A stretch of DNA of 64,000 bases from an uncultured virus (IMG/VR IMGVR_UViG_3300046832_002586) (Duplodnaviria; Heunggongvirae; Uroviricota; Caudoviricetes), in IMG/VR virus record IMGVR_UViG_3300046832_002586, positions 1 through 64,000 of that record, one strand, 5' to 3'. This document shows, piece after piece, positions 10,222-53,138 of this stretch; the stretch's first letter is position 1, and every line of letters begins with the position of its first letter. The translations under genes were made by a program, and so were the position numbers. The notes beneath the pieces are model-generated. The model had not been told where the DNA came from, ran no database searches, and saw nothing but the letters and a program-made list of their open reading frames with translations.

Positions 10222-13200
10222 ATGCCTAAAAATATTACTATTTATCCCGAGGGGGATGGTTCAAGTATAACAGTTCCTTATTTTTATTTTGATGGTGGAA
10301 CAGCATCAATGACAGGTCGTGTGGTTGCCACAGGTGGTTCAACAACAAGTTTCCAATGGATTGTCGGAGTTAACACAATATTCAAATTATCTGATACCGA
10401 ATTTACTATTAGAAATCTTAACGTTACGGATAATTTATCTGTTAATGGTGTTCAAGTTTTAAATGGTACTAAAGGATGGGTAGGTCCAACTACAAATATT
10501 GTTGGAGCTCAAGGCGCTACGGGTAATACTGGTGCTCAGGGTAATACAGGTAATATTGGTGCTCAGGGTAATGTGGGTAATACAGGTGCTCAAGGAAACG
10601 TTGGTGCTCAAGGTGCTCAAGGCAATACAGGACACACAGGTGCTCAAGGAGCTACGGGTAATACAGGTGCTCAAGGTAACATTGGTAATACAGGTGCTCA
10701 AGGAGCCGTAGGAAATACAGGTGCTCAAGGTAATACCGGAGCACAGGGTGCAACAGGTAATATTGGGCCAACAGGTGCGGTAGGACCAACGGGTGCACAG
10801 GGTAATATCGGGGCTCAAGGAGCTCAAGGACTTACAGGAGCTCAAGGACCAACGGGTGCACAGGGTAACATAGGTGCTCAAGGTAACACAGGTGCTCAAG
10901 GAGCTGCAGGTAATACAGGTGCTCAAGGAGCTATAGGTGCTCAAGGTAAAATTGGTAACCAAGGTGCTCAAGGAGACCAAGGGGCTCAAGGTAAACAAGG
11001 TTCTACGGGCAATACAGGAGCTCAAGGTTCTACGGGTAATACGGGTGCACAAGGTAATACAGGTGCACAAGGACCTATTGGTCCTCCAGGTGCTCAGGGT
11101 AATACAGGTGCTCAGGGTAATACAGGTGCTCAGGGTAATACAGGTGCTCAAGGAGCCACGGGTAATACCGGTGCTCAAGGGGCTCAAGGTAATACAGGAC
11201 ATACAGGTGCTCAGGGAGCTACGGGTAATACTGGTGCACAAGGGGCTCAAGGTAACACGGGACATACAGGAGCACAAGGAGCCACGGGTAATACGGGTGC
11301 ACAAGGTAATATAGGTGCACAAGGTGCTGTAGGACCAACAGGTGCTACAGGACCAACGGGTTCACAAGGTAATACAGGTGCTCAAGGTGCTTTAGGACCA
11401 CAAGGAAATACGGGGCCACAAGGTGCTCAAGGACCACAAGGGGCTCAAGGTAATACAGGAGCTCAAGGAGCGACTGGTAACACCGGTGTATTTGGTAATG
11501 AAGGTGCTCAAGGAGCGGTGGGACTTCAAGGTAATGTAGGTAACGTTGGTGCTCAAGGTAATATAGGTGCTCAAGGTAATCTTGGACCCACAGGGAATAT
11601 AGGGCCAACAGGTTCTCAAGGTTCAACGGGTGCTCAAGGTAATACAGGTGCACAAGGTAATATAGGACCACAAGGTGCTCAAGGTAATACCGGTGCTCAA
11701 GGTAACCTTGGACCGACAGGAAATATAGGGCCAACAGGTTCTCAAGGTAATACAGGAAGCCAAGGGTCAATTGGCCCACAAGGACCTAAAGGTCCACAAG
11801 GAGCTCAAGGACCAACGGGTGCTCAAGGTAATATCGGACCACAAGGTGCCATCGGACCACAAGGTTCTCAAGGTTCAACGGGTGCTCAAGGTAATATTGG
11901 ACCACAAGGTGCAACAGGACCAACAGGTTCTCAAGGTTCAACAGGTGCTCAAGGTAATATTGGACCACAAGGTGCTACGGGACCACAAGGTGCAACAGGA
12001 AACACGGGTGCAACAGGAAACACGGGTGCTCAAGGTGCAACAGGAAACACAGGTGCACAAGGTGCTCAGGGTGGTACGGGGTCTATTGGACCTCAAGGAG
12101 CCACGGGACCACAAGGTTCTCAAGGTTCAACAGGTGCTCAAGGACCAATAGGACCACAAGGTGCTACAGGACCTACAGGTGTATTTGGTAATGAAGGAGC
12201 TCAAGGAGCGGTAGGACCACAAGGTGCAACAGGACTTCAAGGTTCCACGGGTGCTCAAGGTAATACAGGTGCCATAGGACCACAGGGTTCTACAGGAGCT
12301 CAAGGTTCTCAAGGTGGTGCCGGTGCAACAGGACATACAGGTGCTCAAGGTGCCACAGGAAATACGGGAGCTCAAGGTAATACGGGAGCTCAAGGTAATA
12401 TAGGTCCGACAGGTGCTACAGGACCTGTAGGTTCACAAGGTAACACAGGTGCTCAAGGACACACCGGTGCACAAGGTGCTATTGGTGGAGGAGGTTCCAC
12501 AGGAGCTCAGGGTGCTACAGGTCATTCAGGTGCACAAGGTGCTATTGGTGGAGGAGGTTCCACAGGAGCTCAGGGCGCTACAGGTCATTCAGGAGCTCAA
12601 GGTAATACAGGTAATACCGGGGCACAAGGACCTCAAGGTGCTACGGGTAATATAGGACCTCAAGGTAATACAGGTAATACCGGAGCACAAGGTAATGCAG
12701 GTGCTACGGGTAATATAGGACCTCAAGGTTCCACGGGTGCTCAGGGTTCTCAAGGTGGTGTAGGTTCTGTAGGTGCGGTTGGTCCCACAGGTGGTGGAGG
12801 TGACACAGGTTCACAAGGTGCTCAAGGTGGTAAAGGACCTACAGGTAATACTGGTAATCTTGGACCTCAAGGTAGTACAGGTGCTCAAGGTGCTCAAGGA
12901 GGTTTTGGACCAACAGGAGGACAAGGTTCTCAAGGAGGTACAGGAATTAGTCCTGGTGCTCAAGGTGCTACCGGAGGACAAGGCGCTCAAGGTCCTGACG
13001 GATTGCCGTCGCAAGGTTCTCAAGGGGCTCAAGGTGTGAATGGTAGTGTTGGTAATACAGGAGCTCAAGGGGCTCAAGGTGGTACGGGTATTCCTGGTTC
13101 ACCTGGTGCACAAGGGGCTCAAGGACAAACAGGAGGTCAAGGTCTTCAAGGAGCCCAAGGTGCAACAGGTACACAAGGTCCTCAAGGAGCTCAAGGTGCT

Positions 13201-13785
13201 CAAGGAGCGACAGGGCCTCCAGCAGCACCTGCGTGTTATGATGTTGGTTTTGTTGGATTATTTCCAGATTGTGATTTTCTAGCGCCGATGGGAATGCCAA
13301 ATGTTTACTCGAATGTGATGATGCCTAACTGTACCTCAAATGATAAAGTTTATGATATAGATGACTGTTCTGGTTGTGATAGTCTTATTAATTTGGTAAT
13401 AGCGGAGTATCAAGCCACTGTAGATGTAACTTGTACGTTGGTATGTTGTTTCTCAGATTTAAGACTTAAAAATGAAGTTATAACTTTAGAGGGCTCATTA
13501 ACAAAATTGATGATGTTACAACCTGTTGAGTTTGATTGGACAGAAAATACTCCTGAATATGATTATTACCTTCAAAATAACAAAACACACTCTTTAGGAT
13601 TTGTTGCTCAACAAGTTAGAGAACACATCCCTGAAGTGGTAAGAATGAGAGAAAATGGATATTACTATATCCTTTATCCGCAACTTAATGCATATTTAGT
13701 GGAAGGTATTAAAGAACATCAAAATAACATTGCATCTGTTGATGAAAGATTAACTATGTTAGAGGAATATATTGAGAATTACTAA
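10222..13785 (+). CDS. collagen-like fibre protein 1 with C-terminal intramolecular chaperone (peptidase S74-like)
   Basis: roughly 900 residues of G-X-Y repeats (GAQ/GNT/GPQ), Cys-rich segment, then SDLRLK...GFVAQ. Confidence 0.9.
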
Positions 13786-16700
13786 TGGCTAATGATATTA
13801 TAATATACCCTTCAGGTAACACCTTTTCAGGTGGTGTACCTTTTATTATTTATGAGGATGCCACTGGTAATCAGTTGGTTCAAAAAGTTAATGCTAATGG
13901 TGATTTAACATTTTCATCATCCACAGATTCTTCTGTAGGTAGTATTGGTACTCAAGCAGTCACTTCTAAAGGTTTTTCTGTTAATGACCTAAGTAGTGGT
14001 GAAGGTATTTACGCGTGGGATGGTAGTTCTACATATGTTCAGATTATTAACTACCTTGGAGAATGGATAGGTTCACAAGCCAATATTAAAGGAGCTCAAG
14101 GAGCTCAAGGTACACAAGGACCAACAGGAGCTCAAGGTACACAAGGACCCCAAGGAGCACAAGGGGCTCAAGGTTCTCAGGGAGGACAAGGTGCTCAAGG
14201 TACACAAGGTGGACAGGGAGCCCAAGGGGCTAACACAGGTGCTCAAGGAGCTCAGGGTACACAAGGTGCTCAAGGTGCACAGGGCGCTAGTACGGGAGCT
14301 CAAGGTAATACAGGTGCTCAGGGAGCTCAAGGTGCACAAGGTACTCAAGGTGCTCAAAGTTCAGTCCAAGGTGCTCAAGGAAAAACGGGTGCCCAAGGTG
14401 CTCAAGGAACTCAAGGTGCTAACAGTTCCACACAAGGTGCTCAAGGTAATACAGGTGCCCAAGGTGCTCAGGGTGCCCAAGGTGCTCAAGGTGCTAGCAC
14501 GGGTGCTCAAGGTAATACAGGTGCCCAAGGTGCCCAAGGTAGTCAAGGAACTGCGAGTATTGTAATCGGACCAACAGGTGCACAAGGTTCTCAAGGACCA
14601 ACAGGTGCTCAGGGAGCTCAAGGTGCGAGTACAGGAGCTCAAGGTAGTACAGGTGCACAAGGAGCCCAAGGTACTCAGGGTAGTACGGATGATACTCCTG
14701 GTGCTCAAGGTGGGCAAGGTTCACAAGGTGGACAAGGAGCTCAAGGAGCTCAAGGTGCTAGTACGGGAGCTCAAGGAGCTCAGGGAGCTCAAGGACCAAC
14801 AGGTTCCCAAGGTGCTCAGGGTGCTAATACAGGTGCTCAAGGTGCTCAAGGTGCTCAAGGACCTAAAGGAGCTCAAGGTGCTCAGGGAGCTAACACAGGA
14901 GCTCAAGGGGCTCAAGGAGCCCAAGGTGCTCAAGGTTCTGTGGGTGCTCAAAGTAGTGTCACAGGTGCTCAAGGTGCTACAGGAAACACGGGTGCTCAAG
15001 GTGCTCAAGGAGCTCAAGGTGGTGTTACAGGTGCTCAAGGTAGTACGGGTGCTCAAGGTGCTCAAGGATTCCAAGGAGCTCAAGGTGCTAGTACAGGTGC
15101 TCAAGGAGCTATAGGTAAACAAGGTGCCCAAGGTGCTCAAGGAGCTCAAGGTGGTGTTACAGGTGCTCAAGGTAGTACGGGTGCTCAAGGAGCTCAAGGA
15201 GCTCAAGGAGCTCAAAGTTCCGTCCAAGGTGCTCAAGGTGCTACAGGTAATACAGGTGCTCAAGGAGCTCAAGGAGCTCAAGGAGCTTCTCAAGGTGCTC
15301 AAGGTAATACAGGTTCACAAGGAGCTCAAGGAGCTCAAGGTGCACAAAGTTCTGTACAGGGTGCCCAAGGTGCGACAGGTAATACAGGTGCCCAAGGTAA
15401 TATAGGTGCTCAAGGAGGTACTGCGGGTGCTACGGGAGTTACAGGTGCTCAAGGAGGACAAGGAGCTCAAGGAGCTCAAGGTGGAACCACGGGAGCTCAA
15501 GGTGCCACAGGTAATACGGGAGCTCAAGGTGCTCAAGGAGCTCAAGGTGGAACCACGGGAGCTCAAGGTGCCACAGGTAATACGGGAGCTCAAGGTGCTC
15601 AAGGAGCTCAAGGTGGTGTTACAGGAGCTCAAGGTAGTACAGGAGCTCAAGGAGCTCAAGGAGCACAAGGGGCACAAGGAGCTAACACAGGAGCCCAAGG
15701 TGCTCAAGGAGCCCAAGGTACTCAAGGTAGTACAGGTGCTCAAGGAGGTAATACGGGCGCTCAAGGAGCTACAGGTAATACAGGTGCTCAAGGTACTCAA
15801 GGTCCTCAAGGAGGAGTTACAGGTGCTCAAGGTGCTGTTGGTAAACAAGGTTCTCAAGGAGCACAAGGTGCTCAAGGAGGACCTACAGGTGCTCAAGGAA
15901 GTACAGGTGCTCAGGGTTCACAAGGAAGTACTGGTGCTCAAAGTAGTGTGACAGGTGCTCAGGGTTCCCAAGGTGGTGGAGGTTCAACAGGTGCACAAGG
16001 AGCTCAAGGTGCTAATACAGGTGCTCAAGGTGGTCAAGGTGCTCAAGGTGGACAAGGTGCTCAGGGTGCTCAAAGTTCGGTTCAAGGTGACCAAGGAGCT
16101 ACGGGTAAACAAGGTGCTCAGGGTTCACAAGGAGCTCAAGGGGCTAGTACAGGAGCTCAAGGTGCTACAGGTGCCCAAGGTGCTCAGGGAGCTCAAGGTG
16201 CTCAAGGGGCTAGTACAGGAGCTCAAGGTGCTACAGGTGCCCAAGGTGCTCAGGGTTCACAAGGAGCTCAAGGGGCTAGTACAGGTGCACAAGGAGGTCA
16301 AGGTTCTCAAGGAGGACAAGGTGCTCAAGGAGCTCAAAGTTCTGTACAAGGTGCACAAGGAGGTCAAGGTTCTCAAGGAGGACAAGGTGCTCAAGGAGCT
16401 CAAAGTAGTGTTACAGGTGCTCAGGGTTCACAAGGTGGTGGAGGTTCCACAGGAGCTCAAGGAGCTCAAGGTTCTACTCAAGGTGCAACAGGTGCTCAAG
16501 GTAATACAGGTGCTCAGGGAGCTAATAGTACAACTCAAGGAGCACAAGGTGCTCAGGGTGCTAATACAGGAGCTCAAGGAGCCCAAGGTGCTCAAGGTAG
16601 CGCGAGTTCTACTCAGGGTGCTCAAGGTGCTGCGGGAAATACAGGTTCCACGGGAAATACAGGAGCTCAAGGAACTATAGGTGCTGCAGGGTCAATTGGT

Positions 16701-17258
16701 CCACCAACGCCAGGCCCACAAGGTGCTCAAGGACCAAAAGGACCTGGAGGAGGACAAGGTTCACAAGGTGCTCAAGGTACAAAAGGACCGAGTGGTAACG
16801 GAGCTCAAGGTGCTGAGGGTTCTCAAGGTGCAAAAGGACCGAGTGGAGGTACAGGTGCTCAAGGTGGTAAAGGACCACAAGGTGCTCAAGGTGCCACAGG
16901 TGCTCAAGGACCACCGTCAGATGCCAGATATAAAACAAATATTAAACCTCTCACAAACGTTAGACAAAACATTGTTAGCATGAGAGGTGTTAAATTTGAT
17001 TGGGTTGAGGACATTCCTCAATTATCAGATTATTTACCAGAGTACAGATATCTAATTACAGGTACGAATCTTGGATTTATTGCTCAAGAAATTGAAGAAA
17101 AATATCCAGATTTAGTTTGGACAGATAAATATGGTTATAAGAATTTACAATATGAACTATTGGTTTCGGTTGGTGTATCAGCATTAATTGAAAACCAAAA
17201 AAGAGTTGAAGTGTTGAATAATTTTCTTAAAGATTTAAGTACAAAAATAGGTGGCTAA
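13785..17258 (+). CDS. collagen-like fibre protein 2 with S74-like chaperone
   Basis: GAQ repeats with periodic interruptions; SDARYKTNI...GFIAQE. Confidence 0.9.
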
Positions 17259-20200
17259 GGATATCATTATATTACCAGGTAGTGCAACTGTTGAGTTGTA
17301 TGATACAAATAATACTAAGGCAACTTGGGTTTACTCCAGTGCTGTACTTGATTGGAAAGTCAGTACTACTGTTTATTTTAAAGTTATTAATACCTCACCT
17401 AAATTTAGGTTGTTTTTTAACAATCTTTATGTTTTTAGTACTATTGCAACAACTGCAGGTACGGTAGTTAATAATGCTCTTTGGACGGGTACAGCAAATA
17501 CCGGACCAACAGGAGCTCAGGGTGCTGCGGGAGCTCAGGGTTCTCAAGGTGCTGCGGGAGCTCAGGGTTCTCAAGGTGGTAAAGGTGCTCAAGGTAATGT
17601 TGGTTCACAAGGTGCAACAGGTAATGTTGGTTCTCAAGGAGGACAAGGTGCTCAAGGTGGAAAAGGACCTCAAGGTTCACAAGGTACTCAAGGAGGACAG
17701 GGTTCTCAAGGGGGACAAGGTTCACAAGGTGCTGTTGGTAGTGTAGGTTCACAAGGTACTCAGGGAGGACAGGGTTCACAAGGTACTCAAGGAGCACAAG
17801 GTACTCAGGGAGGACAGGGTTCACAAGGGGGACAAGGAGCTCAGGGTGCTCAAGGTTCTCAGGGTAATATAGGTTCACAAGGTTCTCAAGGAGGACAAGG
17901 AGCTCAGGGTGCTCAAGGTTCTCAAGGTAGTATAGGTGCTCAAGGTTCGGTAGGTGCGGATGGCGCTCAAGGTTCTCAAGGATTTTTAGGTCCTGTAGGT
18001 TCGCAAGGTGCTCAAGGAGGTCAAGGTGCTCAAGGAGGTCAAGGAAGCCAAGGAAGTCAAGGTAATGTAGGAGCTAAAGGCGCTCAGGGTGTTCAAGGTC
18101 CTATTGGAGCTCAAGGTAATACAGGTTCACAAGGTACTCAGGGAGGACAAGGTTCACAAGGTGCGGTTGGTTCACAAGGAGCAACAGGTAATCAAGGTGC
18201 TCAAGGGGGACAAGGTGCTCAAGGTGCGGTTGGTTCACAAGGAGCAACAGGTAATCAAGGTGCTCAAGGGGGACAAGGTTCGCAAGGTGCTATTGGAGCT
18301 CAAGGTTCTATTGGAGCTCAAGGTGCTCAAGGAGGACAAGGTGCTCAAGGTACTCAAGGAGGTCAAGGTTCACAAGGAGCTGTTGGCGCTCAAGGAGGAC
18401 AGGGTACTCAAGGAGGTCAAGGTTCACAAGGTAGTCTTGGTTCACTTGGGGCTCAAGGAGGTCAAGGGGCTCAAGGTTCACAAGGTACTCAAGGAGGACA
18501 AGGAGGACAAGGTTCTCAAGGAGGACAGGGTGCTCAAGGAGGACAGGGTGCTCAAGGTAATATAGGTTCACAAGGTTCTCAAGGAGGTCAAGGTGTTCAG
18601 GGAACTCAGGGAGGACAAGGTGCTCAAGGTCCTGTAGGTTCTCAAGGAGGACAAGGAGCTCAAGGAACTCAAGGAACTCAAGGTAATATAGGTTCACAAG
18701 GAGCTCAAGGGGGTCAAGGAGTTCAAGGTTCTCAAGGAGGTCAAGGTGCTCAAGGAGGTCAAGGTGCTCAAGGAGGTCAAGGAGTACAGGGAGCTCAAGG
18801 TTCACAAGGTGCGGTTGGTTCACAAGGTTCTCAAGGAGGACAAGGTGCTCAGGGTACTCAAGGAGGACAGGGTTCTCAAGGTGCTACAGGTTCTCAAGGA
18901 GGACAAGGTGCTCAGGGTGTTCAAGGAGGGCAAGGTTCGCAAGGAGCGGTCGGTTCACAAGGAGGACAAGGTTCTCAAGGAGGACAAGGTTCTCAAGGTG
19001 CGGTTGGTTCCCAAGGAGCTCAGGGTGGACAAGGTTTCCAAGGAGCGACCGGTTCACAAGGAGCAACAGGTAATCAAGGGGCTCAAGGAGGACAAGGTTT
19101 CCAAGGTACTCAAGGTGGTCAGGGAGCTCAAGGTTCGATAGGTGGTGTTGGTAGTCAGGGTGCTCAAGGTTCACAAGGTACTCAAGGAGGACAAGGAGGA
19201 CAAGGTTCTCAAGGAGGACAAGGAACTCAAGGAGGTCAAGGTTCTCAAGGTGGAGGTGGTGCTCAAGGTTCACAAGGAGGTCAAGGTTCTCAAGGTGGAG
19301 GTGGTTCCACAGGTGCTCAAGGTTCACAAGGTTCACAAGGAGGTCAAGGTTCTCAAGGTGGGACTGGTGGTGGAGGTGCTACAGGTTCTCAAGGTTCTCA
19401 AGGTGGTAAAGGTGCTCAAGGTTCACAAGGAGGACAAGGTGCTCAAGGTGCTCAGGGGTCTACAGGAGGACAAGGTTCACAAGGAGGACAAGGTTCACAA
19501 GGAGGTAAAGGTGACACAGGACCAACAGGAGGACAAGGTTCACAAGGAGGACAAGGTTCACAAGGAGGTAAAGGTGCCACAGGACCAACAGGAGGACAAG
19601 GTGCTCAAGGAGGAACTGGCGGTGGAGGTGCAACAGGTTCACAAGGAGCTCAAGGAGGACAAGGTTCGCAAGGTGGTGCTGGTGGTGGAGGTGCTACAGG
19701 TTCACAAGGAGCTCAGGGAGGACAAGGTTCGCAAGGTGGAGGTGGCTCTACAGGTGCTCAAGGTTCACAAGGTTCTCAAGGAGGTCAAGGTGCTCAAGGT
19801 ACTCAAGGAGGACAAGGTTCACAAGGAGCTCAGGGAGGACAAGGTGCTCAGGGTACTCAAGGAGGACAAGGTTCTCAGGGTGGAGGTGGCTCAACAGGTG
19901 CTGCGGGTGGACAAGGAACTCAAGGACCACAAGGTGCTCAAGGACCACAAGGAGGACAAGGTGCTCAAGGTGCGGTTGGTACACAAGGTGCTCAAGGTTT
20001 TCCTTCTGAAGGTGCGGGTGCTCAAGGTGCTCAAGGTTTTCCAGGTACCGCACCTACAGGTTCCCAAGGTGCAACAGGTGCTCAAGGACCTGGTGCAGGT
20101 GGTGCTCAAGGACCTACAGGTGCTCAAGGAAAGGCAGGTTCTACTTTTGGTGCTCAAGGTGCTACAGGAGCACAAGGAGCCACGGGTAATACGGGTGCAC

Positions 20201-20550
20201 AAGGTGCTACAGGACCTACAGGACCATCCGACATTAGATTAAAGACAAACATTGAACCTATTGAATCTGCACTTGAAAATTTAATTAAAATTCGTGGTGT
20301 TGAATTCTATTATAATTGGGATGATAAAGAAAAACTTGGACATAAAAACATTGGTTTTATTGCTCAAGAAGTTTTACCATATTTCCCTGAACTTGTATCT
20401 GGTAGTGAAGAAAAACACTACACCATGAAATACAAAGAGATGATTGCCGTGTGTATTGAAGCTTTAAAAGAGCAAGAAGTTATTATTAACTCAATTGAAG
20501 ACAGAGCTCAAAAACTTGTAGTAAAGGCGAAAGAAAAAAGATTACTTTAA
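17251..20550 (+). CDS. collagen-like fibre protein 3 with S74-like chaperone
   Basis: GTG start; GAQ/GSQ/GGQ repeats; SDIRLKTNI...GFIAQE. Confidence 0.9.
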
Positions 20551-26176: not shown

Positions 26177-27169
26177 ATGAGTCAAATTTTGATAACTGAA
26201 AATCAACTTGAAGGGTTGAAACAAAACCTTAATGAAGCTTATTGGTTGAATACTGTTTTGGATGTTGTTGGTATTGTTGACCCAACAGGAATTACTGACT
26301 TTGTAAATGCCATTTCTTATTATAAACAAGGTGACACCCTATTTGCGTTTTTGTCTTTAATATCCGCAGTACCATATATTGGTGATGTGGTTGGTAAAAC
26401 TGCTATAGGAACCATGAAAGCCGGAAGTCAAGGGACTAAGTACCTTAGAAATGCTGAAAAAGCCATTAATGCTGGTAATACTGAATTGGCTCTCAAGAAT
26501 CTTAAGATGTTAGAAAAAGTTGAAGGACCTGCAAACATATTATTTAAAACCGCTCAAAATTGGACTTCAAGAGTTGACACAGTAATTGATAAAATTCCAA
26601 ATATGGGAGGATTATTATCAGGGTTTAAAAAGACTCTACAAAGTTGGGTAAACTTATTCAGTAGTGCGTCAAGAAGGTCCATGGGTGTTAGACGTTTAAT
26701 GGTAAATAAAACACCACAAGAACAAATGAAATTGGTTCAAGGTTTGGAAACAGCTTTGAAAAGAGAAAAGTTTATGGACCCAGCAATATTAGGTAAACCA
26801 AATATCCTCCAAAGATTCCTTTATGGGGGTGGTCTTGGTTTAGGTAGATTTTCTGACCTGTTTGGGAAAAGTTCTTTAAGAACAAGAGTACTAATGGGTC
26901 AAACAAAATTCTATCTTGGGTTTTTAGATAAATTGGGTGTTGGAAATTTTGTTGGACCTGAAGAACTTTCAGGTATGATGGGTGAGGAACAGATGTTAGC
27001 GGCAATGAAACAGTATGAATCAACTCCTGAGGGTCAAGAAGCCTTAAAAACTGAGTTGGGTGGAACTACAACAACTCAAGTATCACCACAGAGTTTAGTT
27101 GCTGTGGGTGAAAAAATATCCATGTCGCCGATTACGTCAGCATTAACAAAATTAATGAGTCCAGTATAA
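26177..27169 (+). CDS. leader-bearing protein with pre-toxin-like hydrophobic hairpin
   Basis: N-terminal ILITENQ...LNE leader then LDVVGIVDPTGITDFVNAISY...LSLISAVPYIGD. Confidence 0.65.
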   Translation: MSQILITENQLEGLKQNLNEAYWLNTVLDVVGIVDPTGITDFVNAISYYKQGDTLFAFLSLISAVPYIGDVVGKTAIGTMKAGSQGTKYLRNAEKAINAGNTELALKNLKMLEKVEGPANILFKTAQNWTSRVDTVIDKIPNMGGLLSGFKKTLQSWVNLFSSASRRSMGVRRLMVNKTPQEQMKLVQGLETALKREKFMDPAILGKPNILQRFLYGGGLGLGRFSDLFGKSSLRTRVLMGQTKFYLGFLDKLGVGNFVGPEELSGMMGEEQMLAAMKQYESTPEGQEALKTELGGTTTTQVSPQSLVAVGEKISMSPITSALTKLMSPV

Positions 27170-27540
27170 TGAAAGAAGAATATATTTTAAAATTAGTCCA
27201 AGTTCAAAATCAATTTAGATTTTTACATTGGCAAACTACGTTTGACGCTAAACATAAAGCATATGGTAAGGTATATGATAGATTAGGTGATTTAATTGAC
27301 GACTTCGTTGAAGGTATGATGGGAAAGTACGGAAGACCAAAATTCCCTGAAGAATTTTCTATCATGTTTCAAGACATTGATAAACTATCAATGCAAAATT
27401 TCATTGATGGTATCTGTGAATTTTTATTATCTATGACTGAAGGTTTAGATTCAAAAGTGGATACTGATTTATTGAATATTAGAGATGAAATGTTGTTATC
27501 AATTAACAAATTAAAATATTTATTAACTCTCAAATATTAA
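27169..27540 (+). CDS. ferritin/Dps-like (DUF5856-type) protein
   Basis: LHWQT...HKAYG...DDFVE...YGR...LLNIRDEML...YLLTL. Confidence 0.75.
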   Translation: MKEEYILKLVQVQNQFRFLHWQTTFDAKHKAYGKVYDRLGDLIDDFVEGMMGKYGRPKFPEEFSIMFQDIDKLSMQNFIDGICEFLLSMTEGLDSKVDTDLLNIRDEMLLSINKLKYLLTLKY

Positions 27541-29722: not shown

Positions 29723-30151
29723 ATGGAAAAGTATAAAAGGTTGAGTGGTGTGGTCGTTAAAGTTAACGGTGAATGCTTATTGTGTAAAAGAAACGGTAAG
29801 TCATCTTACCCTAATATGTGGTCTATTCCTTCAGGACACGTTGAAAAAGATGAATCAACTAAAGAAGCTGCGTACAGAGAGTTTTACGAAGAGACCGATA
29901 TTAACATAGATAACTACGATTTAGATTTTGTGGGTATACTACCAAAAAAGAAAAAGACTGACGGTAGTATAAAAGGTATGATGTATGTTTATTTGTTGAA
30001 TACCCATGAGTATATGTACCCTAACCTTGAAACCGCTCAAGATGGACATGAACACACTGAATGTGGGTATTTTGGTTTGGATAAAGTCAATAATATGGAT
30101 ACAGGAGTATATTTGAAAACAATTTTACAAAATATTTTTGAAAAAGATTGA
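29723..30151 (+). CDS. NUDIX hydrolase
   Basis: Nudix box GHVEKDESTKEAAYREFYEET. Confidence 0.9.
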   Translation: MEKYKRLSGVVVKVNGECLLCKRNGKSSYPNMWSIPSGHVEKDESTKEAAYREFYEETDINIDNYDLDFVGILPKKKKTDGSIKGMMYVYLLNTHEYMYPNLETAQDGHEHTECGYFGLDKVNNMDTGVYLKTILQNIFEKD

Positions 30152-30230
30152 ACTTTTCAATAGTATGTCTATATTTATAATCTCCACCGAAAGGTAGAAA
30201 CACCCCACAAAAAAGTTTCACTTAGCCCTT

Positions 30231-30261
30231 TTGACAATTTGAAAAAATTGTTTTATCTTTG
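30231..30261 (+). promoter_or_regulatory. host-type (Bacteroidota) promoter for the tRNA
   Basis: TTGACA at 30231 and TATCTTTG (TAnnTTTG) at 30254. Confidence 0.7.
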
Positions 30262-30376
30262 TGAGACACTCGGAAGAAGAGGAGTTAAATCCTCAATTCA
30301 CAGTCCTACAACGAGTGTTCGAGAGAATACAATAAGTTGTGGGACTTTTTTTCGGGGAACGTTCTTAAAAATAAAT

Positions 30377-30449
30377 CGCGGGATAGTAGCAGCGGTAGCT
30401 CGCAAGGCTCATAACCTTGAGGTCGGGGGTTCGATTCCCTCTCCCGCTA
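30377..30449 (+). tRNA. tRNA-Met (CAT), initiator-like
   Basis: acceptor CGCGGGA/TCCCGCT with 1:72 mismatch, anticodon arm CAAGG-CTCATAA-CCTTG, GGTTCGATT T-loop; CCA not encoded. Confidence 0.92.
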
Positions 30450-30469
30450 CAAAAAAAACACGAAGGTGC

Positions 30470-30533
30470 TTGACAGAATGAAAAACTGTTGTATCTTTGT
30501 ATAACAAATCAGGAAACTGAAACGTTCTTTAAA
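30470..30533 (+). promoter_or_regulatory. promoter plus boxB/boxA-like antitermination leader
   Basis: TTGACA 30470, TATCTTTG 30492, hairpin TCAG-GAAA-CTGA 30509-30520, AACGTTCTTTAAA 30521-30533. Confidence 0.6.
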
Positions 30534-30534
30534 T

Positions 30535-31425
30535 TATTGATTATTCCATCAGTATGTTGATGATGAGACCCTTGGGTTGATTTTGAGAAAATACTGAGAA
30601 AAGATAATCGGCCGCCTATGGTCGATAAATAAACCACGAAAGTGGGATAAAGTGGTCTCTCAAGTTTAAAAGAGATTGCGGTTTTTAAAACTTCGGTTTT
30701 ATTAACTCGAGTAGGCAAGCGGGATATCATAAGTCCTAAGTAATCGAGGGTGACACTGTAGATGAAATGGAAATATGACTCAGCGATGTGGGTCGTTGGG
30801 TTGAGTTCGGAAGAACAATAAGAATAACTCGTAGAATTGTTGTGGGAAATAGGGTAATCCAACCTTATAACTGCGGGATTCAATATCAAAGGATACTTAA
30901 AACCGAAAGGTATGATGACAAACGGGTGGTGCCGAAATCATCCTTGACCATTGTCTACCAAGACATAAGTCACGAAGTAGTCTTGAAGTGTTGAGGTAGG
31001 GATATCTCAGAGAGTAGTATAGTATCGAGTCGTTCAAAAGATGGCTTGGCTGGTCGGCGGACCACTACTTTCATCCATCCACAAACAACAAACTTTGCAT
31101 TTTATAGGTATGCAAATACTAAAAGACAAAGGAAAAGTGTCCGTCAGTTGTAGGTGAAAGGTGACTACATAGTAATGAGATGTTCATTGCCGTTGTGGGT
31201 TTCCAAGACCCACACGATTCTTGAGAACGTTCTCTAATCCCGCAAGGATTCACTGGGGTGGCAACCTCGGAGAGTAATAAGTAAAAAGAGAGTAAGCTAC
31301 AACTCAAGGAGTGGTACCCCTAAGGAACCGTCACTGAGAATTACTATTCAAAAGATAGTGGAAACGGAAAGAAACAATAATGTTCCTAAAGATTCTCAAT
31401 CAAAGGTGTATTCTCAACCTAAGTG
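30535..31425 (+). ncRNA. large structured ncRNA, GOLLD-like candidate (~890 nt; ends approximate)
   Basis: no credible ORF, GC-richer than flanks, many GNRA/UUCG hairpins, own promoter and terminator, adjacent to a tRNA. Confidence 0.7.
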
Positions 31426-31427
31426 CC

Positions 31428-31460
31428 AAAACCCGAAGAAAAAAATCTTCGGGTTTTTTT
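31428..31460 (+). terminator. intrinsic terminator of the large ncRNA
   Basis: AAAACCCGAAGA...TCTTCGGGTTTT hairpin with T-tract. Confidence 0.85.
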
Positions 31461-31507
31461 GTTTATATGGAAAGTTCTTTTTATATTTGTAGTGTTAAAC
31501 AACAGAT

Positions 31508-31801
31508 ATGAAAATAAATTTTACATACAATATTCGGATTGAGAACGAGAAGTTCGGAACCCTCTTGAATGAAACCTTTGTTGATGGTGTTCAGTTTAAG
31601 TTGTTTTTGAAGATGGTTCACGGTTGTTTGGAACTCAAAGGAGATTTAGATTTCTTCAATGGTACCGACTTCTTGGTTCACATTCCTTACAAGTATTTGG
31701 TTGATTCTATTGTTTTGACTTCCTTGGTTACACCAACAGTTGGTGAACTTAGTTTGTCAGAACATATGAAATCTAAGGTGGAAGCTTTAGTTACCAAATA
31801 A
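31508..31801 (+). CDS. hypothetical protein
   Basis: 97 aa ORF after TATATTTG promoter (31482). Confidence 0.7.
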   Translation: MKINFTYNIRIENEKFGTLLNETFVDGVQFKLFLKMVHGCLELKGDLDFFNGTDFLVHIPYKYLVDSIVLTSLVTPTVGELSLSEHMKSKVEALVTK

Positions 31802-31860
31802 TTTCCTGACATAATGTCAGGTGGTGGAGTGATTGACTGTCATTCGGTCAGTCCCAAAAG

Positions 31861-31888
31861 AAAAGGTCAGTTTCGGCTGACCTTTTTT
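31861..31888. terminator. bidirectional intrinsic terminator
   Basis: AAAAGGTCAG-TTTCGG-CTGACCTTTT between convergent genes. Confidence 0.8.
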
Positions 31889-32426
31889 ATTCTTTTGCTC
31901 TATTTGCTCTATCAGCCAATCCTATTGGGGTTCCCATATATGAACTAATTTGTTTTGCAATAAATGATACCCATTCATTTAATGCGTCGGAGTAGTCGTA
32001 CGGGTTTTCATCCCATAAAAAATCTAATAAACCATCAATGTCAAAATATTTCATCTCTTCTTCACCATCGTCATTTATATGTAAGTAAATTATACTTGAA
32101 TTTGGTATGTCCCAATTTTCTATTAATACTGTGGCATATCTTTCATCATTAATTTCTTCAACATAAACAGATGAATTTTTAAAATCTAACTCAACGTATG
32201 ACCCAACCTCTAAACTGTCTATTTCAATTTTAAATGGTCCATCTTTAGTTAATTTTTTGATTGATTTAGTTAATAATGTTTTGGTACCTTCTTCACCTAA
32301 AGATTTGTGCATGGACATGAGAAACTCTGATTGAGTCATGTCAAACATCTCCAAATATAAATTCATATTTGGGTTAGGGTATCCACCTCGGGATTTTAAA
32401 AATTTTACTATACCGTTAAAGTCCAT
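31887..32426 (-). CDS. hypothetical acidic protein
   Basis: 179 aa ORF. Confidence 0.7.
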   Translation of the reverse strand: MDFNGIVKFLKSRGGYPNPNMNLYLEMFDMTQSEFLMSMHKSLGEEGTKTLLTKSIKKLTKDGPFKIEIDSLEVGSYVELDFKNSSVYVEEINDERYATVLIENWDIPNSSIIYLHINDDGEEEMKYFDIDGLLDFLWDENPYDYSDALNEWVSFIAKQISSYMGTPIGLADRANRAKE

Positions 32427-44453: not shown

Positions 44454-46349
44454 ATGAAAAAAATAATTGCTGCAATTTTTGCACTAACCACGTGGGTCAC
44501 GTTACAAGCACAGACGTGCCCCACACCAACCACCTCAGGAGTTCACGTTACTTTAGATTCCACGTATCAACTTGGAAAATATAGTGCGGGTTACACTGAC
44601 GTAGGATTGTGCTTTTACAACAGTTCTTCCGAGAACATAACCGCTGTTCAGTTCAGGTTGTTTTATGACAATCAGGCTTTCAGTGGAGTTGACACAGTAA
44701 CCTCAACTAACACATCTTTTTCACAGAGTCTTCAGTATGTTGATGCACCTGCTTCAGGATATGTGACGATTACTTTGGTTTACACAGGAACCAACTCATC
44801 GTTTACAATTCCTGCAGGTTCTTTGTTCAATGTAAAGATGAATCACACATCTTCACTGGCAACAACTTACTTTACTGTGACTGACATGAAATTTGTTGGT
44901 TCAAGTAGTTTTTCACAGACAGCAACAAAACAAGCAGGTGATGACTACAGTTTGAATCTTACAAACTTTGGTGGTGTTTTGAAATCACAGAAGATGTCAT
45001 TTAAAGGTAAGTTTGTAAACGTTACAGGAACGGTATCCAAAAATTTGGCGGTTGCTTTAGACAAAAAACTTAAGACATCGTCTACTTGGACACAAGTTAC
45101 ATCACAGAAAACAAACGTAAACGGTCGTTTTGCTTTTACCGATGTTGAAATTGATACAAGTGCATGGAACGTAAGAATCAGAGTTCAGGGTGACACGATG
45201 AGTGTTGGTAATGTGGTAACAACCGCAGACGCTCAAAGAATTAACCAATACGTTTTGGGTACACAAACGATGACAGGTTTTGATTTTTATTCATCAGATG
45301 TTAATGGTGATAAGAATGTAACCGTGTCTGACGTTTACGGTGTTTATGCAAGAGTTGCGGGTAGATTTACAACATGGGCTAACTCAGTTCCTGATGTTAA
45401 GTTCTTTACAGAATCACAATATAATTCAATTGTTGGTTCAACAACAACTCAACAGAACACACATCCTGGTGTAACCAACTTCACATTTGATATTGTTGCA
45501 GGTCAACCTGACTCAGTAACATACTATGTGTTGGTACCGGGTGATGCTAACGGAACAGGATTCAAGAGAGCTCGTTTGATTCCAATTGAAATTGTTAACC
45601 CAAACAACGCTAATAAACGTATCATTGACGTTACAACTCAATACGACAATAATCTAAGAACCATTGAAGTAAACTTCCCAACCCTTGGTGTTGATGAAGG
45701 TAACTTGGTGAGAGTTCCTGTAAAATTAAAAACATCAGGGATTAACTTAGGAGCGTTACAACTTTCAATGAAATATGATTCTGATTTGTTAGAGTTTGTA
45801 TCACTTCAAAATGAATTGAAATCTTCTTATTGGATTTCTTTTATTAATGTAAATGATAACGAAGTTGAATGGGGTGGATACGACCCAACAAACAATCAAA
45901 ATTTGGTTAAAGACGGTGAGACTTTATTTACATTAGAATTTCGTTCTAAAATGACTCAGAGTGAGTGGAACAAAAGTCCTTTGTATGTTACAAGAAAATT
46001 TGCTGGTGACAATGTTGCAACTGATTTAATTATCACACCAACAGACGGTATCTTACAAGTCTTCAAAAGAGACCCTACGGAGTTATCAGGTTTTGAAAAG
46101 ATGAGAGTTTACCCAAACCCAACTATGGGTGAAACCATGATTACATTCAAGATATACGAGAAAGGTTTTGTTACCTTAGGTGTTTACGATATGGGTGGTA
46201 AAAAATGTGTGGAAGTGTTAAACGGAACATATTCTGTTGGTCAATACTCTACAACTGTAAACTTAGGAATGTTAAGTGCTGGTGAATACATTGCTATTCT
46301 CAGAAAAGACGATGAGTTGTACTCAGATAGAACTTCAGTAGTTAAGTAA
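44454..46349 (+). CDS. secreted cohesin/dockerin-like protein with T9SS C-terminal sorting domain
   Basis: signal peptide ...LQAQ; two cohesin-like segments (AVQFRLFYD, ALQLSMKYD); dockerin-like DVNGDKNVTVSD; VYPNPT...GVYDMGG...GEY CTD. Confidence 0.75.
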   Translation: MKKIIAAIFALTTWVTLQAQTCPTPTTSGVHVTLDSTYQLGKYSAGYTDVGLCFYNSSSENITAVQFRLFYDNQAFSGVDTVTSTNTSFSQSLQYVDAPASGYVTITLVYTGTNSSFTIPAGSLFNVKMNHTSSLATTYFTVTDMKFVGSSSFSQTATKQAGDDYSLNLTNFGGVLKSQKMSFKGKFVNVTGTVSKNLAVALDKKLKTSSTWTQVTSQKTNVNGRFAFTDVEIDTSAWNVRIRVQGDTMSVGNVVTTADAQRINQYVLGTQTMTGFDFYSSDVNGDKNVTVSDVYGVYARVAGRFTTWANSVPDVKFFTESQYNSIVGSTTTQQNTHPGVTNFTFDIVAGQPDSVTYYVLVPGDANGTGFKRARLIPIEIVNPNNANKRIIDVTTQYDNNLRTIEVNFPTLGVDEGNLVRVPVKLKTSGINLGALQLSMKYDSDLLEFVSLQNELKSSYWISFINVNDNEVEWGGYDPTNNQNLVKDGETLFTLEFRSKMTQSEWNKSPLYVTRKFAGDNVATDLIITPTDGILQVFKRDPTELSGFEKMRVYPNPTMGETMITFKIYEKGFVTLGVYDMGGKKCVEVLNGTYSVGQYSTTVNLGMLSAGEYIAILRKDDELYSDRTSVVK

Positions 46350-46423: not shown

Positions 46424-46738
46424 ATGTCAGAAGAACAAGAAAATGACGGAACCTGGAGTGGTCTTAAGAAGACTATTATCGGGGCGATTGCAACAGCAGT
46501 CACAGCTGGTGGAGCTTATTTCACCACAACACTTTTTGGTGGTGATGAAGAAGAGTCACCAAAAACAGAGCAAGTTGCACCTGCGGCACCTGTAATTAAT
46601 TTGAATGTTGACAATTCATCTAAGAACACAAATTCTGGCGGTGGAACGACAACAGTTATCAAAGAAAAGACAGTTGAAAAACCTGCAGCACCTGCTCCTA
46701 AACAAGAGAAAAGTGAATCTGAAGATGCACCTTGGTAA
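46424..46738 (+). CDS. single-TM protein with low-complexity tail
   Basis: likely ATG at 46424; TM IIGAIATAVTAGGAYF. Confidence 0.7.
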   Translation: MSEEQENDGTWSGLKKTIIGAIATAVTAGGAYFTTTLFGGDEEESPKTEQVAPAAPVINLNVDNSSKNTNSGGGTTTVIKEKTVEKPAAPAPKQEKSESEDAPW

Positions 46739-47453
46739 ACTAATTGTTTTGGGATTAGTGTTGGTTGGGTGTGGTACTCCAAAAGAGTGTCATGGTCAAC
46801 CAATCGGTTCTATTAAAACTGAGGAGTATACCGCCAACTTTGAAAAAAAGAAGTCTTTGGAATCACTTCCACCTTACACCGATACAATCCAAATCCCTAT
46901 TCAAATCCTAAAAATTGGTATCAACGATGAAGTTTATGAAATGTATCCTGAGTTGAAAGATGCTCGTGTTGGAATGGGTGTTACAAACATTGTATTGGAA
47001 TACTTGGAGGAAACAGGAAGATTTGTATTCACAGAAGACAAATTGGAAATCAAAGAAAGAATGGTTCAACAATTCAAAGCGTCCAATAAAGGTTTTACCG
47101 AAAACAAAATTGATGGGAAAGGTAAAATCAAATTAGCAAAATACTTTGTTTACATTGAAGTCTATGATTTTTCTGTCGGTGAAGATGAAGTTGTTGAAAC
47201 AAGTGGCGTTACAATAAAACAAGTAACTCAGTTAGGATTACAGGTTAGATTTGTGGATGCTGAAACAGGAGAAATTATTACAGGGTCAGGTCAAGGTAGA
47301 GCAATCACAACCAAGACTTCAACGACTTTAGGTGATATTGAAGGACCAACATTTAACAAATCAACTGTGGGTGTATCTACAAAAAAGGCTCTCGAGACTT
47401 CAACTGTAAGAGTAGTTGAAAAACTCATTAAAAAAGGAATGTTAAAAAGTTAA
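46725..47453 (+). CDS. CsgG/HfaB-like lipoprotein
   Basis: lipobox LVGC after ATG at 46725; TGRFVFTE and VRFVDAETGEII motifs. Confidence 0.7.
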   Translation: MHLGKLIVLGLVLVGCGTPKECHGQPIGSIKTEEYTANFEKKKSLESLPPYTDTIQIPIQILKIGINDEVYEMYPELKDARVGMGVTNIVLEYLEETGRFVFTEDKLEIKERMVQQFKASNKGFTENKIDGKGKIKLAKYFVYIEVYDFSVGEDEVVETSGVTIKQVTQLGLQVRFVDAETGEIITGSGQGRAITTKTSTTLGDIEGPTFNKSTVGVSTKKALETSTVRVVEKLIKKGMLKS

Positions 47454-52341: not shown

Positions 52342-52596
52342 ATGTTTGTCGCAAAATATGTTGTTATCAATGGTAGTGTGATTGTTTTTAGTGCTGCGAT
52401 AAATCACTCTGACATAGTTGGTGGGCAAGATGCAACAAGTGCTGGGTTTGTCTCATTCCGAGTAATCAAAGATGTGGATGACTTTGATGTTGTTGAACCA
52501 CATTGTTATGGTGAGTCTATAAGTTTGGGGGGATTAAAATCAAATCCTGAGGAAGACCAAAAAAAGATTAGGTTACAAATCCTTAATAGATATTAA
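52342..52596 (+). CDS. hypothetical protein
   Basis: 84 aa ORF. Confidence 0.65.
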   Translation: MFVAKYVVINGSVIVFSAAINHSDIVGGQDATSAGFVSFRVIKDVDDFDVVEPHCYGESISLGGLKSNPEEDQKKIRLQILNRY

Positions 52597-53138
52597 AGGT
52601 ATTTCGCTAAAACGTTTCTTAAACTTATTTTTGCCTTACTGAGTTGTGAACGAGAGGTTCCTGGGTCAATACCCAAGACCTCCGCAATCTCATTGTGTTT
52701 TAGGTTACCAAAATAATATAACATCAATATTGTTTTGTAACCTTCGGCTAAACCATCAACCGCTTTTCTTAACTGTTCTTTGGTTATTCTACCACCCATG
52801 AAATCGGTTTCCGTAGGTTCTACTCCAACATCCATTTTTGAGATATCTAAATCAGTTGTGGTATCCAACTGTTTTTTTCTAAACTCATTGATAATTTCGT
52901 TGGTGACAACTCTTCTTACCCATCCTTGTAAACTACCTTGACCTGAGTATTTGTCTAAGTTTTTATGAACTTTAAGAAATCCAATCTGACAAAACTCTTT
53001 GGCTAAATCAATATCACCTTTGGCGTACTTCATACAAACCTGAGAAAATATTGGATTGTAATTTTTTTTATAAACTTCCGTAAAATCTAACCCTTCGGTT
53101 AAAATCTTACGTTGAGACTCCGTGATAATAATTTTCAT
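52593..53138 (-). CDS. ECF-type RNA polymerase sigma-70 factor with N-terminal leader
   Basis: region 2 GFLKVH...SLQGWVRRVVTNEIIN; region 4 HNEIAEVLGIDPGTSRSQLSKAK. Confidence 0.9.
   Translation of the reverse strand: MKIIITESQRKILTEGLDFTEVYKKNYNPIFSQVCMKYAKGDIDLAKEFCQIGFLKVHKNLDKYSGQGSLQGWVRRVVTNEIINEFRKKQLDTTTDLDISKMDVGVEPTETDFMGGRITKEQLRKAVDGLAEGYKTILMLYYFGNLKHNEIAEVLGIDPGTSRSQLSKAKISLRNVLAKYL

What the first reader, a model, noticed from the sequence alone, without database searches (positions are those of the whole stretch)
30535..31425. ~890 nt ornate non-coding RNA next to tRNA-Met (GOLLD-like candidate)
Seen: a long stretch with no credible ORF, bounded by a TTGACA/TATCTTTG promoter and a strong terminator (31428-31460). 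It is packed with hairpins: ATCGGCC..GGTCGAT (30607-30626), CCAC-GAAA-GTGG (30634), AAAAC-TTCG-GTTTT (30687), GACTCAGCGAT..GTCGTTGGGTT (30778), ACC-GAAA-GGT (30902), GTGGGT..ACCCAC (31195), AATCC-CGCAA-GGATT (31236). The loop TTCAAAAG recurs (31033, 31347), and an A-rich linker (~31080-31135) splits two GC-richer halves. Known: GOLLD RNAs are ~800 nt, two-domain, phage-associated and often next to tRNAs; their function is unknown. Inference: this is a GOLLD relative or a new giant RNA class in a probable Bacteroidota phage.
Basis: partly seen in the sequence, partly recalled or inferred. Interest (0 to 1): 0.8.

Follow-up and report, generated by a model that had tools for sequence, protein, structure and literature searches.

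The report
Phage GOLLD RNA with rRNA-like leader
This is an ordinary full-length copy of GOLLD, a known giant phage RNA whose solved relative builds a hollow RNA cage, and it sits behind a short leader like the one its likely host bacteria put before ribosomal RNA, which hints that the phage borrows the host's rRNA transcription machinery to make it.

Summary
The stretch is a genuine GOLLD RNA, not a new class. Rfam RF02032 matches 31010-31420 end to end (318.8 bits, cut-off 150). The 5' half is the long, env-38-type 5' domain. The core is 30607-31420 (814 nt), so the first 70 nt of the finding are leader. In 74 related RNAs, 32 column pairs beat a tree-based null; 28 are canonical, 11 of them in the 5' domain. 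The loops that bridge chains in the solved 14-mer cage are kept. Contigs from four lake RNA libraries cover it. The phage is a fragment with Bacteroidota marks, and 5 of 5 complete relatives carry bS21.

Extra feature: a Bacteroidota promoter, a 5' hairpin and GTTCTTTRA precede 100 of 105 related GOLLDs (background 31 of 2644 windows). The same word lies in host-phylum rRNA leaders (18 of 22) and spacers (17 of 17), so it is probably boxA. This scan already reported GOLLD, and GOLLD behind such a leader, on other genomes. Cellular role unproven. New member of a known kind.

The parts
30231..30261 (+). Promoter of the tRNA unit: TTGACA and Bacteroidota-type TAnnTTTG (TATCTTTG 30254-30261)
   Evidence: TAnnTTTG as sigma-A box from passages of PMC9723704
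30262..30376 (+). Folded leader of the tRNA, ending in a boxA-like variant GTTCTTAAA (30361-30369)
   Evidence: Motif; predicted fold -38.9 kcal/mol, no shuffle control
30377..30450 (+). tRNA-Met(CAT); first base pair is a C-U mismatch, as in initiator tRNAs (that criterion is recalled)
30470..30499 (+). GOLLD promoter: TTGACA (30470-30475) and TATCTTTG (30492-30499); start inferred near 30504
   Evidence: TAnnTTTG lies within 130 nt upstream of the boxA-like word in 56 of 62 clusters
30509..30520 (+). 5'-terminal hairpin TCAG-GAAA-CTGA (boxB-like position); size varies widely among homologs
   Evidence: Hairpin of -2 kcal/mol or better between promoter and boxA-like word in 55 of 56 clusters, against 724 of 2800 shuffles
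30524..30532 (+). boxA-like word GTTCTTTAA (family consensus GTTCTTTGAAA)
   Evidence: 62 of 65 and 38 of 40 clusters; same word in host-phylum rRNA leaders and spacers
30540..30606 (+). Optional spacer stem between boxA-like word and GOLLD core; absent in some homologs and not part of the solved env-38 construct
   Evidence: Fold; word lies within 25 nt of the core in 13 of 102 clusters; TATC...GATA arms in 63 of 105; env-38 start
30607..31009 (+). GOLLD 5' domain, long env-38 type, with the three-hairpin P11 branch, the GAAA loop at 30905 and a pseudoknot 30614-30618:30712-30716
31010..31420 (+). GOLLD 3' region, full Rfam RF02032 match
   Evidence: 318.8 bits, E 1.8e-90, model 1-416 of 416
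31073..31130 (+). Variable A-rich linker (43-69 nt in homologs, 58 here); no tRNA inside
   Evidence: tRNA inside the core in 0 of 99 clusters
31428..31462 (+). Intrinsic-terminator-like hairpin and T run

Best explanation
The locus is a stand-alone gene for a long-type GOLLD RNA in a large freshwater phage of Bacteroidota. Step 1 (inferred from conserved motifs): host sigma-A polymerase starts near 30504 and stops at the terminator near 31460. Step 2 (inferred, about 0.6): the first 30 nt form a hairpin plus boxA, which loads host NusB-S10 and the rRNA-type antitermination complex, so the 0.9 kb untranslated RNA escapes Rho and folds as it is made; the phage puts the same signal before its tRNA and tmRNA genes. 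Step 3 (shown by covariation): 30607-31420 folds into the two-domain GOLLD structure. Step 4 (inferred from kept bridge loops, about 0.85): copies assemble into a hollow cage like the env-38 14-mer, with the A-rich linker inside. Step 5 (weakest, about 0.35): the cage serves the phage's takeover of translation, holding or shielding ribosomal subunits or tRNAs, in line with its place among tRNA, tmRNA and bS21 genes. The confidence given is for steps 1, 3 and 4 together; GOLLD membership alone is about 0.98.
For: Rfam full-length match. 168 full-length homologous cores of 790-839 nt in 74 clusters. 32 pairs above the largest of 20 tree-based null maxima, 28 canonical, 11 in the 5' domain. Bridge residues listed for env-38 are kept in 114 clusters: B7 kissing pair 31131:31204 and 31132:31203 canonical in 114 of 114, the second as GC 63, CG 48, AT 3; B4 two pairs 114 of 114 and a third 106 of 114; B2 G30748/C30754 114 of 114; B5 pairs 114 of 114; B8 GC in 100 of 113; B9 GC in 109 of 114; GAAA loop of B1 114 of 114; AAAA loops of B6 and B10. 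Leader. Host-phylum rRNA motif. B. subtilis rrn leaders have a 5' hairpin and a similar word that binds NusB (PMC13753749 passages). Of 14 promoter-plus-word sites in 5 complete phage records, 11 lie before GOLLD (4), tRNA (5) or tmRNA (2), against 4 control matches. RNA-library contigs of four studies cover 30626-31408 or more. Host: T9SS sorting domain at 44454-46349, bS21 in 5 of 5 relatives (4 over the cut-off).
Against: No experiment on this RNA. Contigs cannot give strand, ends or level, the runs were picked with this stretch, and one contig of a close relative runs across the terminator (31243-32038). NusB binding of the word has not been shown in Bacteroidota in anything I read. Six GOLLD loci of another type, inside tRNA arrays (L266, L305, L319, L315, L333, L342; two sequence groups by eye), lack the word in the DNA held, so it is not a universal GOLLD feature. 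The outer B4 pairs of env-38 are not kept (25 of 105 and 9 of 114), and stoichiometry varies in the family (10-, 12- and 14-mers; PMC12990946 passages). A tRNA lies next to the RNA in only 34 of 99 clusters and inside it in none. bS21 was not found in the window's own record, which is 24% complete. In E. coli, boxA mutations cost 30S activity only 2- to 3-fold (PMC10250234 abstract).
Confidence: 0.85

Rival explanations
1. The GTTCTTTRA word is not a Nus loading site but a processing or stability signal of stable-RNA precursors (a nuclease site, or the 5' arm of a processing stem), shared with rRNA for that reason.
For: It stands before rRNAs, phage tRNAs and tmRNAs, all of which are processed, and before 6 of 30 host-phylum tmRNA loci (two of the 30 rows were mis-registered). 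The published GOLLD core starts 83 nt downstream, so the leader may be cut off.
Against: No leader-trailer helix: cognate leader and 3' flank pair no better than non-cognate ones (-10.9 against -11.2 kcal/mol, 100 clusters). Distance to the core varies from 14 to 129 nt. Hairpin-then-word at the transcript start is the layout of the NusB-binding site in B. subtilis.
Confidence: 0.25
2. The cage or its leader is a decoy: made in bulk, it soaks up host anti-phage nucleases or RNA-binding proteins, or titrates Nus factors away from host rRNA operons.
For: Large, stable, protein-free RNA; expression rises during lysis according to Kretsch et al. citing earlier work; the leader copies a host rRNA signal.
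Against: Nothing tested here points to a bound protein. The word is also before phage tRNA and tmRNA genes, which fits plain use of the machinery. Conserved loops are accounted for by RNA-RNA bridges.
Confidence: 0.2
3. A new class of giant RNA, or a GOLLD 3' domain joined to an undescribed 5' domain.
For: Rfam has no model for 30607-31009, so the 5' half looks unassigned in a scan.
Against: The Rfam model only covers the 3' region. The 5' half follows env-38 motif by motif from its first hairpin (by eye) and its bridge residues map onto the window.
Confidence: 0.02
4. The stretch is conserved because it encodes a protein (126 aa minus-strand ORF, 68 aa plus-strand ORF, or a 15-codon ORF starting at 31110 in the linker).
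For: The ORFs exist in the window.
Against: Stops in 109 of 114 and 82 of 114 equivalents; linker ORF in 14 of 114; no family match; changes follow base pairs.
Confidence: 0.01

Closest known systems
GOLLD RNA, Rfam RF02032; closest described member env-38 (833 nt, 14-mer cage; Kretsch et al., bioRxiv 10.1101/2024.12.08.627333 and PMC12286853)
   Same: Two domains and variable linker; same first hairpin and last hairpin; lies downstream of tRNA-Met; three-hairpin P11 branch and both P21 hairpins; donor loops of all ten bridges kept.
   Different: 814 nt; P11a is a short GAAA hairpin; B7 uses G:C where env-38 has A:U; outer B4 pairs missing; an optional TTCG extension at 30687; a 100-nt leader that the solved construct does not include.
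Streptococcus agalactiae GOLLD (700 nt, 12-mer; as reviewed in PMC12990946)
   Same: Shared 3' domain and cage principle.
   Different: The review says it lacks P9, P11a-c and P21b; the window has the P11 branch and P21b.
Leader of bacterial rRNA operons (5' hairpin or boxB, boxA; Nus antitermination complex)
   Same: Promoter, terminal hairpin, then a GTTCTTTGA-type word that matches the host phylum's rRNA leaders and spacers and resembles the B. subtilis NusB site (PMC13753749).
   Different: No leader-trailer helix; boxC not looked for; the RNA downstream is not ribosomal; NusB binding untested.
bS21-encoding freshwater phages of Bacteroidetes (PMC9723584)
   Same: Five complete relatives by GOLLD are 257-321 kb, carry bS21 and 20-29 tRNA matches.
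   Different: The paper's main text does not mention GOLLD (0 occurrences). The window's own fragment shows no bS21, so its clade is inferred.

Membership tests
GOLLD RNA (RF02032) | Covariance-model match of the conserved 3' region above the gathering score | tested here: met
   318.8 bits against 150, model 1-416
GOLLD RNA (RF02032) | Structured 5' domain of about 400 nt, env-38 type | tested here: met
   11 significant canonical pairs; stems and pseudoknot 113-114 of 114 canonical; by-eye match to env-38
GOLLD RNA (RF02032) | Variable linker between conserved parts | tested here: met
   43-69 nt, poorly conserved
GOLLD RNA (RF02032) | Length near 800 nt, non-coding | tested here: met
   Cores 790-839 nt; ORFs not conserved
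GOLLD RNA (RF02032) | Phage or prophage location, often near tRNA genes | tested here: met
   Virus record; tRNA-Met at 30377-30450; adjacent tRNA in 34 of 99 clusters
GOLLD RNA (RF02032) | Residues of the inter-chain bridges B1-B10 | tested here: met
   Donor loops and kissing pairs kept. The B10 receptor was not tested; outer B4 pairs are not kept
GOLLD RNA (RF02032) | Assembly into a homo-oligomeric cage | not testable with these tools
   Needs mass photometry or cryo-EM
GOLLD RNA (RF02032) | Expressed as a discrete RNA | tested here: inconclusive
   Contigs of four RNA libraries cover it, but contigs give no strand, ends or level
rRNA-type antitermination leader (boxA) | boxA word of the host lineage near the transcript start | tested here: met
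   100 of 105 clusters; host-phylum 16S leaders 18 of 22, spacers 17 of 17, background 9 of 120
rRNA-type antitermination leader (boxA) | Hairpin just upstream of boxA | tested here: met
   55 of 56 against 724 of 2800 shuffles; 17 of 40 second-sample leaders not folded, none scored
rRNA-type antitermination leader (boxA) | Leader-trailer helix closing the RNA | tested here: not met
   Cognate -10.9 against non-cognate -11.2 kcal/mol
rRNA-type antitermination leader (boxA) | NusB-S10 binding and resistance to Rho | not testable with these tools
   Needs binding and transcription assays
ROOL, group I/II intron, RNase P, tmRNA | Rfam match | tested here: not met
   Only GOLLD and tRNA reach gathering scores in the window; none of these among matches up to E 10 in 30100-31100

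The most novel reading that the evidence does not exclude
Bacteroidota phages transcribe GOLLD as a mock ribosomal RNA: a hairpin-boxA leader loads the host Nus antitermination complex, which protects and chaperones folding of the 0.8 kb RNA into its cage, so cage biogenesis in the cell runs on, and may compete for, the host's ribosome-building machinery.
Probability: 0.55. Interest if true: 0.5.

Novelty: new member of a known kind. Interest (0 to 1): 0.3.

Why it matters
As one more GOLLD it adds little. Two points are of use to people working on these RNA cages. First, the set gathered here ties the env-38-type GOLLD to bS21 lake phages of Bacteroidota (5 of 5 complete records tested), which names a host group for functional work. 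Second, the conserved rRNA-style leader gives a direct, testable handle on how GOLLD is made in the cell, which the structural papers I read do not address. Neither point tells what the cage is for. This scan has already noted the leader on other genomes.

Tried and rejected
GOLLD in cellular genomes: the pattern scan of genome contigs gave 7 loci, none a GOLLD. The Rfam search of 151 genomes of one Bacillota class and of 2 single genomes found none, and its controls rang nowhere, so this shows nothing. The same search in the host phylum gave no answer, so no prophage copy names the host. Plasmids: no match. Annotated phages: 2 unannotated huge-phage records only. Leader-trailer helix: not found. 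Coding roles: rejected. The SD-like AAGGAG at 31306 is not a free Shine-Dalgarno lure: its AGG pairs with the L22 loop (106, 112 and 114 of 114), and the word is exact in only 75 of 114. RNAalifold's long-range pairs between columns 283-285 and 1085-1087 never vary and conflict with the covarying first hairpin; dropped. Some of my pair tests were in the wrong register (two B5 pairs and the L22 pseudoknot, redone; the B1 receptor, for which the right register is columns 926:942 and 927:941). The pair-count tool gave no result for the 5' domain, so the covariation figures rest. Depth differences were not used to rank genes or to place RNA ends; contig starts at 30626-30630 in three runs may be assembly breaks.

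Full report
Observation. The two halves fold better than dinucleotide shuffles (z -3.24 and -2.62). The ORFs that overlap the stretch are not conserved: internal stops in 109 of 114 and 82 of 114 homolog clusters, and a linker micro-ORF in 14 of 114.

Identity. Rfam's GOLLD model matches 31010-31420 over all 416 positions at 318.8 bits (cut-off 150). The model covers only the 3' region, and nothing else scores in 30100-31100. With the 7 loci and the window that made 230 sequences, of which 223 hit a profile of the core and 168 were full length, in 74 clusters at 93%. The patterns came from the window, so this set leans to its subtype. Across all 114 clusters identity to the window is 59-87%, median 70%, the same in both halves.

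Boundaries. The solved GOLLD env-38 begins with the hairpin that starts at 30607 here and ends like the window at 31420 (PMC12286853 supplement 1, compared by eye). Homology in the collected loci also starts near 30600. So the core is 30607-31420, 814 nt, and 30504-30606 is leader.

Structure. RNAalifold on 39 sequences predicts 199 pairs, 118 with a compensatory change. My own G-test with average-product correction on 74 sequences, against 20 null alignments that keep the tree and the per-branch substitutions, leaves 32 pairs above the largest null maximum; 28 are at least 90% canonical and 11 of these lie in the 5' domain. This null is a rough stand-in for R-scape. Three pseudoknots hold: 30614-30618 with 30712-30716, 31056-31060 with 31141-31145, and 31307-31309 with 31319-31321.

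Cage contacts. Kretsch et al. list the residues of ten inter-chain bridges. Mapped by eye onto the window and counted in 114 clusters: the B7 kissing pairs 31131:31204 and 31132:31203 are canonical in 114 of 114, the second switching among GC (63), CG (48) and AT (3), and it is also one of the significant long-range pairs. B2, B5 and the core of B4 are kept in 106-114 of 114. The self-pairing GC of B8 is in 100 of 113 and that of B9 in 109 of 114. The outer B4 pairs are not kept, and the B10 receptor was not tested. A cage like the 14-mer is therefore likely but is inferred; family members form 10-, 12- and 14-mers (PMC12990946 passages).

Phage and host. The window is the first 64 kb of a 71 kb virus record estimated at 24% complete. 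It encodes three collagen-repeat proteins with S74 chaperone domains and a protein with the T9SS sorting domain (that this domain marks Bacteroidota is recalled). Its promoters carry TAnnTTTG, the flavobacterial sigma-A box (PMC9723704 passages). Five complete records with related GOLLDs all carry bS21 (4 over the cut-off), as do the lake phages of Bacteroidetes in PMC9723584 (abstract and passages). The window's fragment has no bS21 match.

Expression. Of 23 runs listed, 18 are RNA runs holding 0.35-0.49 of the sampled words of a 1.5 kb query. I laid 4 of them, from 4 studies. Their contigs cover the core with few differences, for example 30567-31260 with 7 and 30800-31423 with 3. Contigs show presence in RNA libraries, not strand, ends or level.

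The leader. Upstream of the core the homologs share an order of parts, not a length: promoter, hairpin, GTTCTTTRA, optional stem, core. The word lies within 140 nt of the core in 62 of the 65 first-sample clusters that had that much flank, against 31 of 2644 flanking windows, and in 38 of 40 second-sample clusters; the other two carry a one-letter variant. Its distance to the core ranges from 14 to 129 nt. A hairpin lies between promoter and word in 55 of 56 first-sample cases; several second-sample leaders look too short for one and were not scored. The word is also present before the GOLLD of a 634 kb phage and before a GOLLD with an unrelated 5' domain (L329). In genomes of the phylum of a Flammeovirgaceae bin, a slightly looser form is in 18 of 22 16S leaders and 17 of 17 spacers, against 9 of 120 background windows (31 loci examined, the rest lacked flank). 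B. subtilis rrn leaders have a 5' hairpin followed by a similar word that binds NusB (PMC13753749 passages), and the E. coli consensus is GYTCTTTAANA (PMC5725501 passages). In five complete phage records, 14 promoter-plus-word sites were found against 4 control matches: 4 lead GOLLD, 5 tRNAs, 2 tmRNA, 2 lie 200-300 nt ahead of the GOLLD promoter and 1 is unrelated. Against a general rule: six GOLLD loci of another type lack the word, only 6 of 30 host tmRNA loci have it, and there is no leader-trailer helix.

Mechanism. Shown: family, fold, kept bridge residues, the leader's conservation and its match to host rRNA leaders. Inferred: transcription from about 30504, Nus loading at the boxA-like word (about 0.6; the complex shields against Rho and is described as an RNA chaperone in PMC8632103 passages), cage assembly (about 0.85), and a role in the phage's control of translation (about 0.35), for which the only support is genomic company and a ribosome pull-down cited by Kretsch et al..

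What is in print. GOLLD and its cages are published. I found no paper linking GOLLD to boxA or antitermination, and boxA and leader do not occur in the main text of PMC12286853. This is weak: the 2009 discovery paper was not held, subscription papers are missing, and I did not open the GOLLD alignment or other files of PMC12286853 (read: file 1 part 2 and a search of file 1, file 3 part 1 only). Of bioRxiv 10.1101/2024.12.08.627333 I read parts 1-3 and 5 of 7 and passages; of PMC10250234 the abstract; of PMC6582537 passages. This scan's own notes already hold an ordinary GOLLD call and two GOLLD-plus-leader reports on other genomes; I had reached the leader reading before seeing them, and they are not independent evidence.

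Verdict. Observation confirmed, first reading supported, new member of a known kind. Interest 0.3, carried by the leader and the tie to bS21 phages.

Noticed in passing
window 10222-20550: Three tandem genes of 1100-1190 aa with collagen repeats and a C-terminal S74 chaperone domain, likely tail fibres; they explain the G+C rise at 11-20 kb.
   Followed up: no
window 44454-46349: A 631-aa phage protein with a T9SS C-terminal sorting domain, next to a weak CsgG-like gene at 46605-47453.
   Followed up: no
window 30262-30376: The tRNA-Met has its own promoter and a 115-nt folded leader that ends in a boxA-like variant; the same variant precedes GOLLD in L274.
   Followed up: partly
window 31421-31462: This GOLLD has a separate terminator, whereas in 78 of 101 clusters a T run follows the last GOLLD hairpin directly, which may itself end transcription.
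   Followed up: partly
window 31243-32038: One RNA-library contig of a close relative (19 differences) runs from the GOLLD 3' end across the terminator and the 97-aa gene at 31508-31801.
   Followed up: no
L329 (minus strand, upstream of 1698): A GOLLD 3' region (304.9 bits) joined to a 5' domain that does not match the env-38-type profile, yet with promoter and boxA-like word.
   Followed up: partly
L266, L305, L319, L315, L333, L342: GOLLDs of another type (172-194 bits) inside tRNA arrays, with a different 5' domain and no boxA-like word in the DNA held.
   Followed up: partly
L262 about 1160-1258 and 2356-2450: In the 634 kb phage record LR745206 the GOLLD unit is flanked by two near-identical copies of a tRNA-like sequence of about 95 nt (seen by eye).
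   Followed up: no
L422 1269-1461: A phage tRNA gene interrupted by a group I intron directly behind a promoter and boxA-like word.
   Followed up: no
L007, L016, L029: tmRNA genes lie within 2 kb of GOLLD in these relatives.
   Followed up: no
window 52593-53138 and 27169-27540: A sigma-70-family gene (regions 2 and 4) and a DUF5856 gene that PHROGs calls a starvation-inducible regulator.
   Followed up: no
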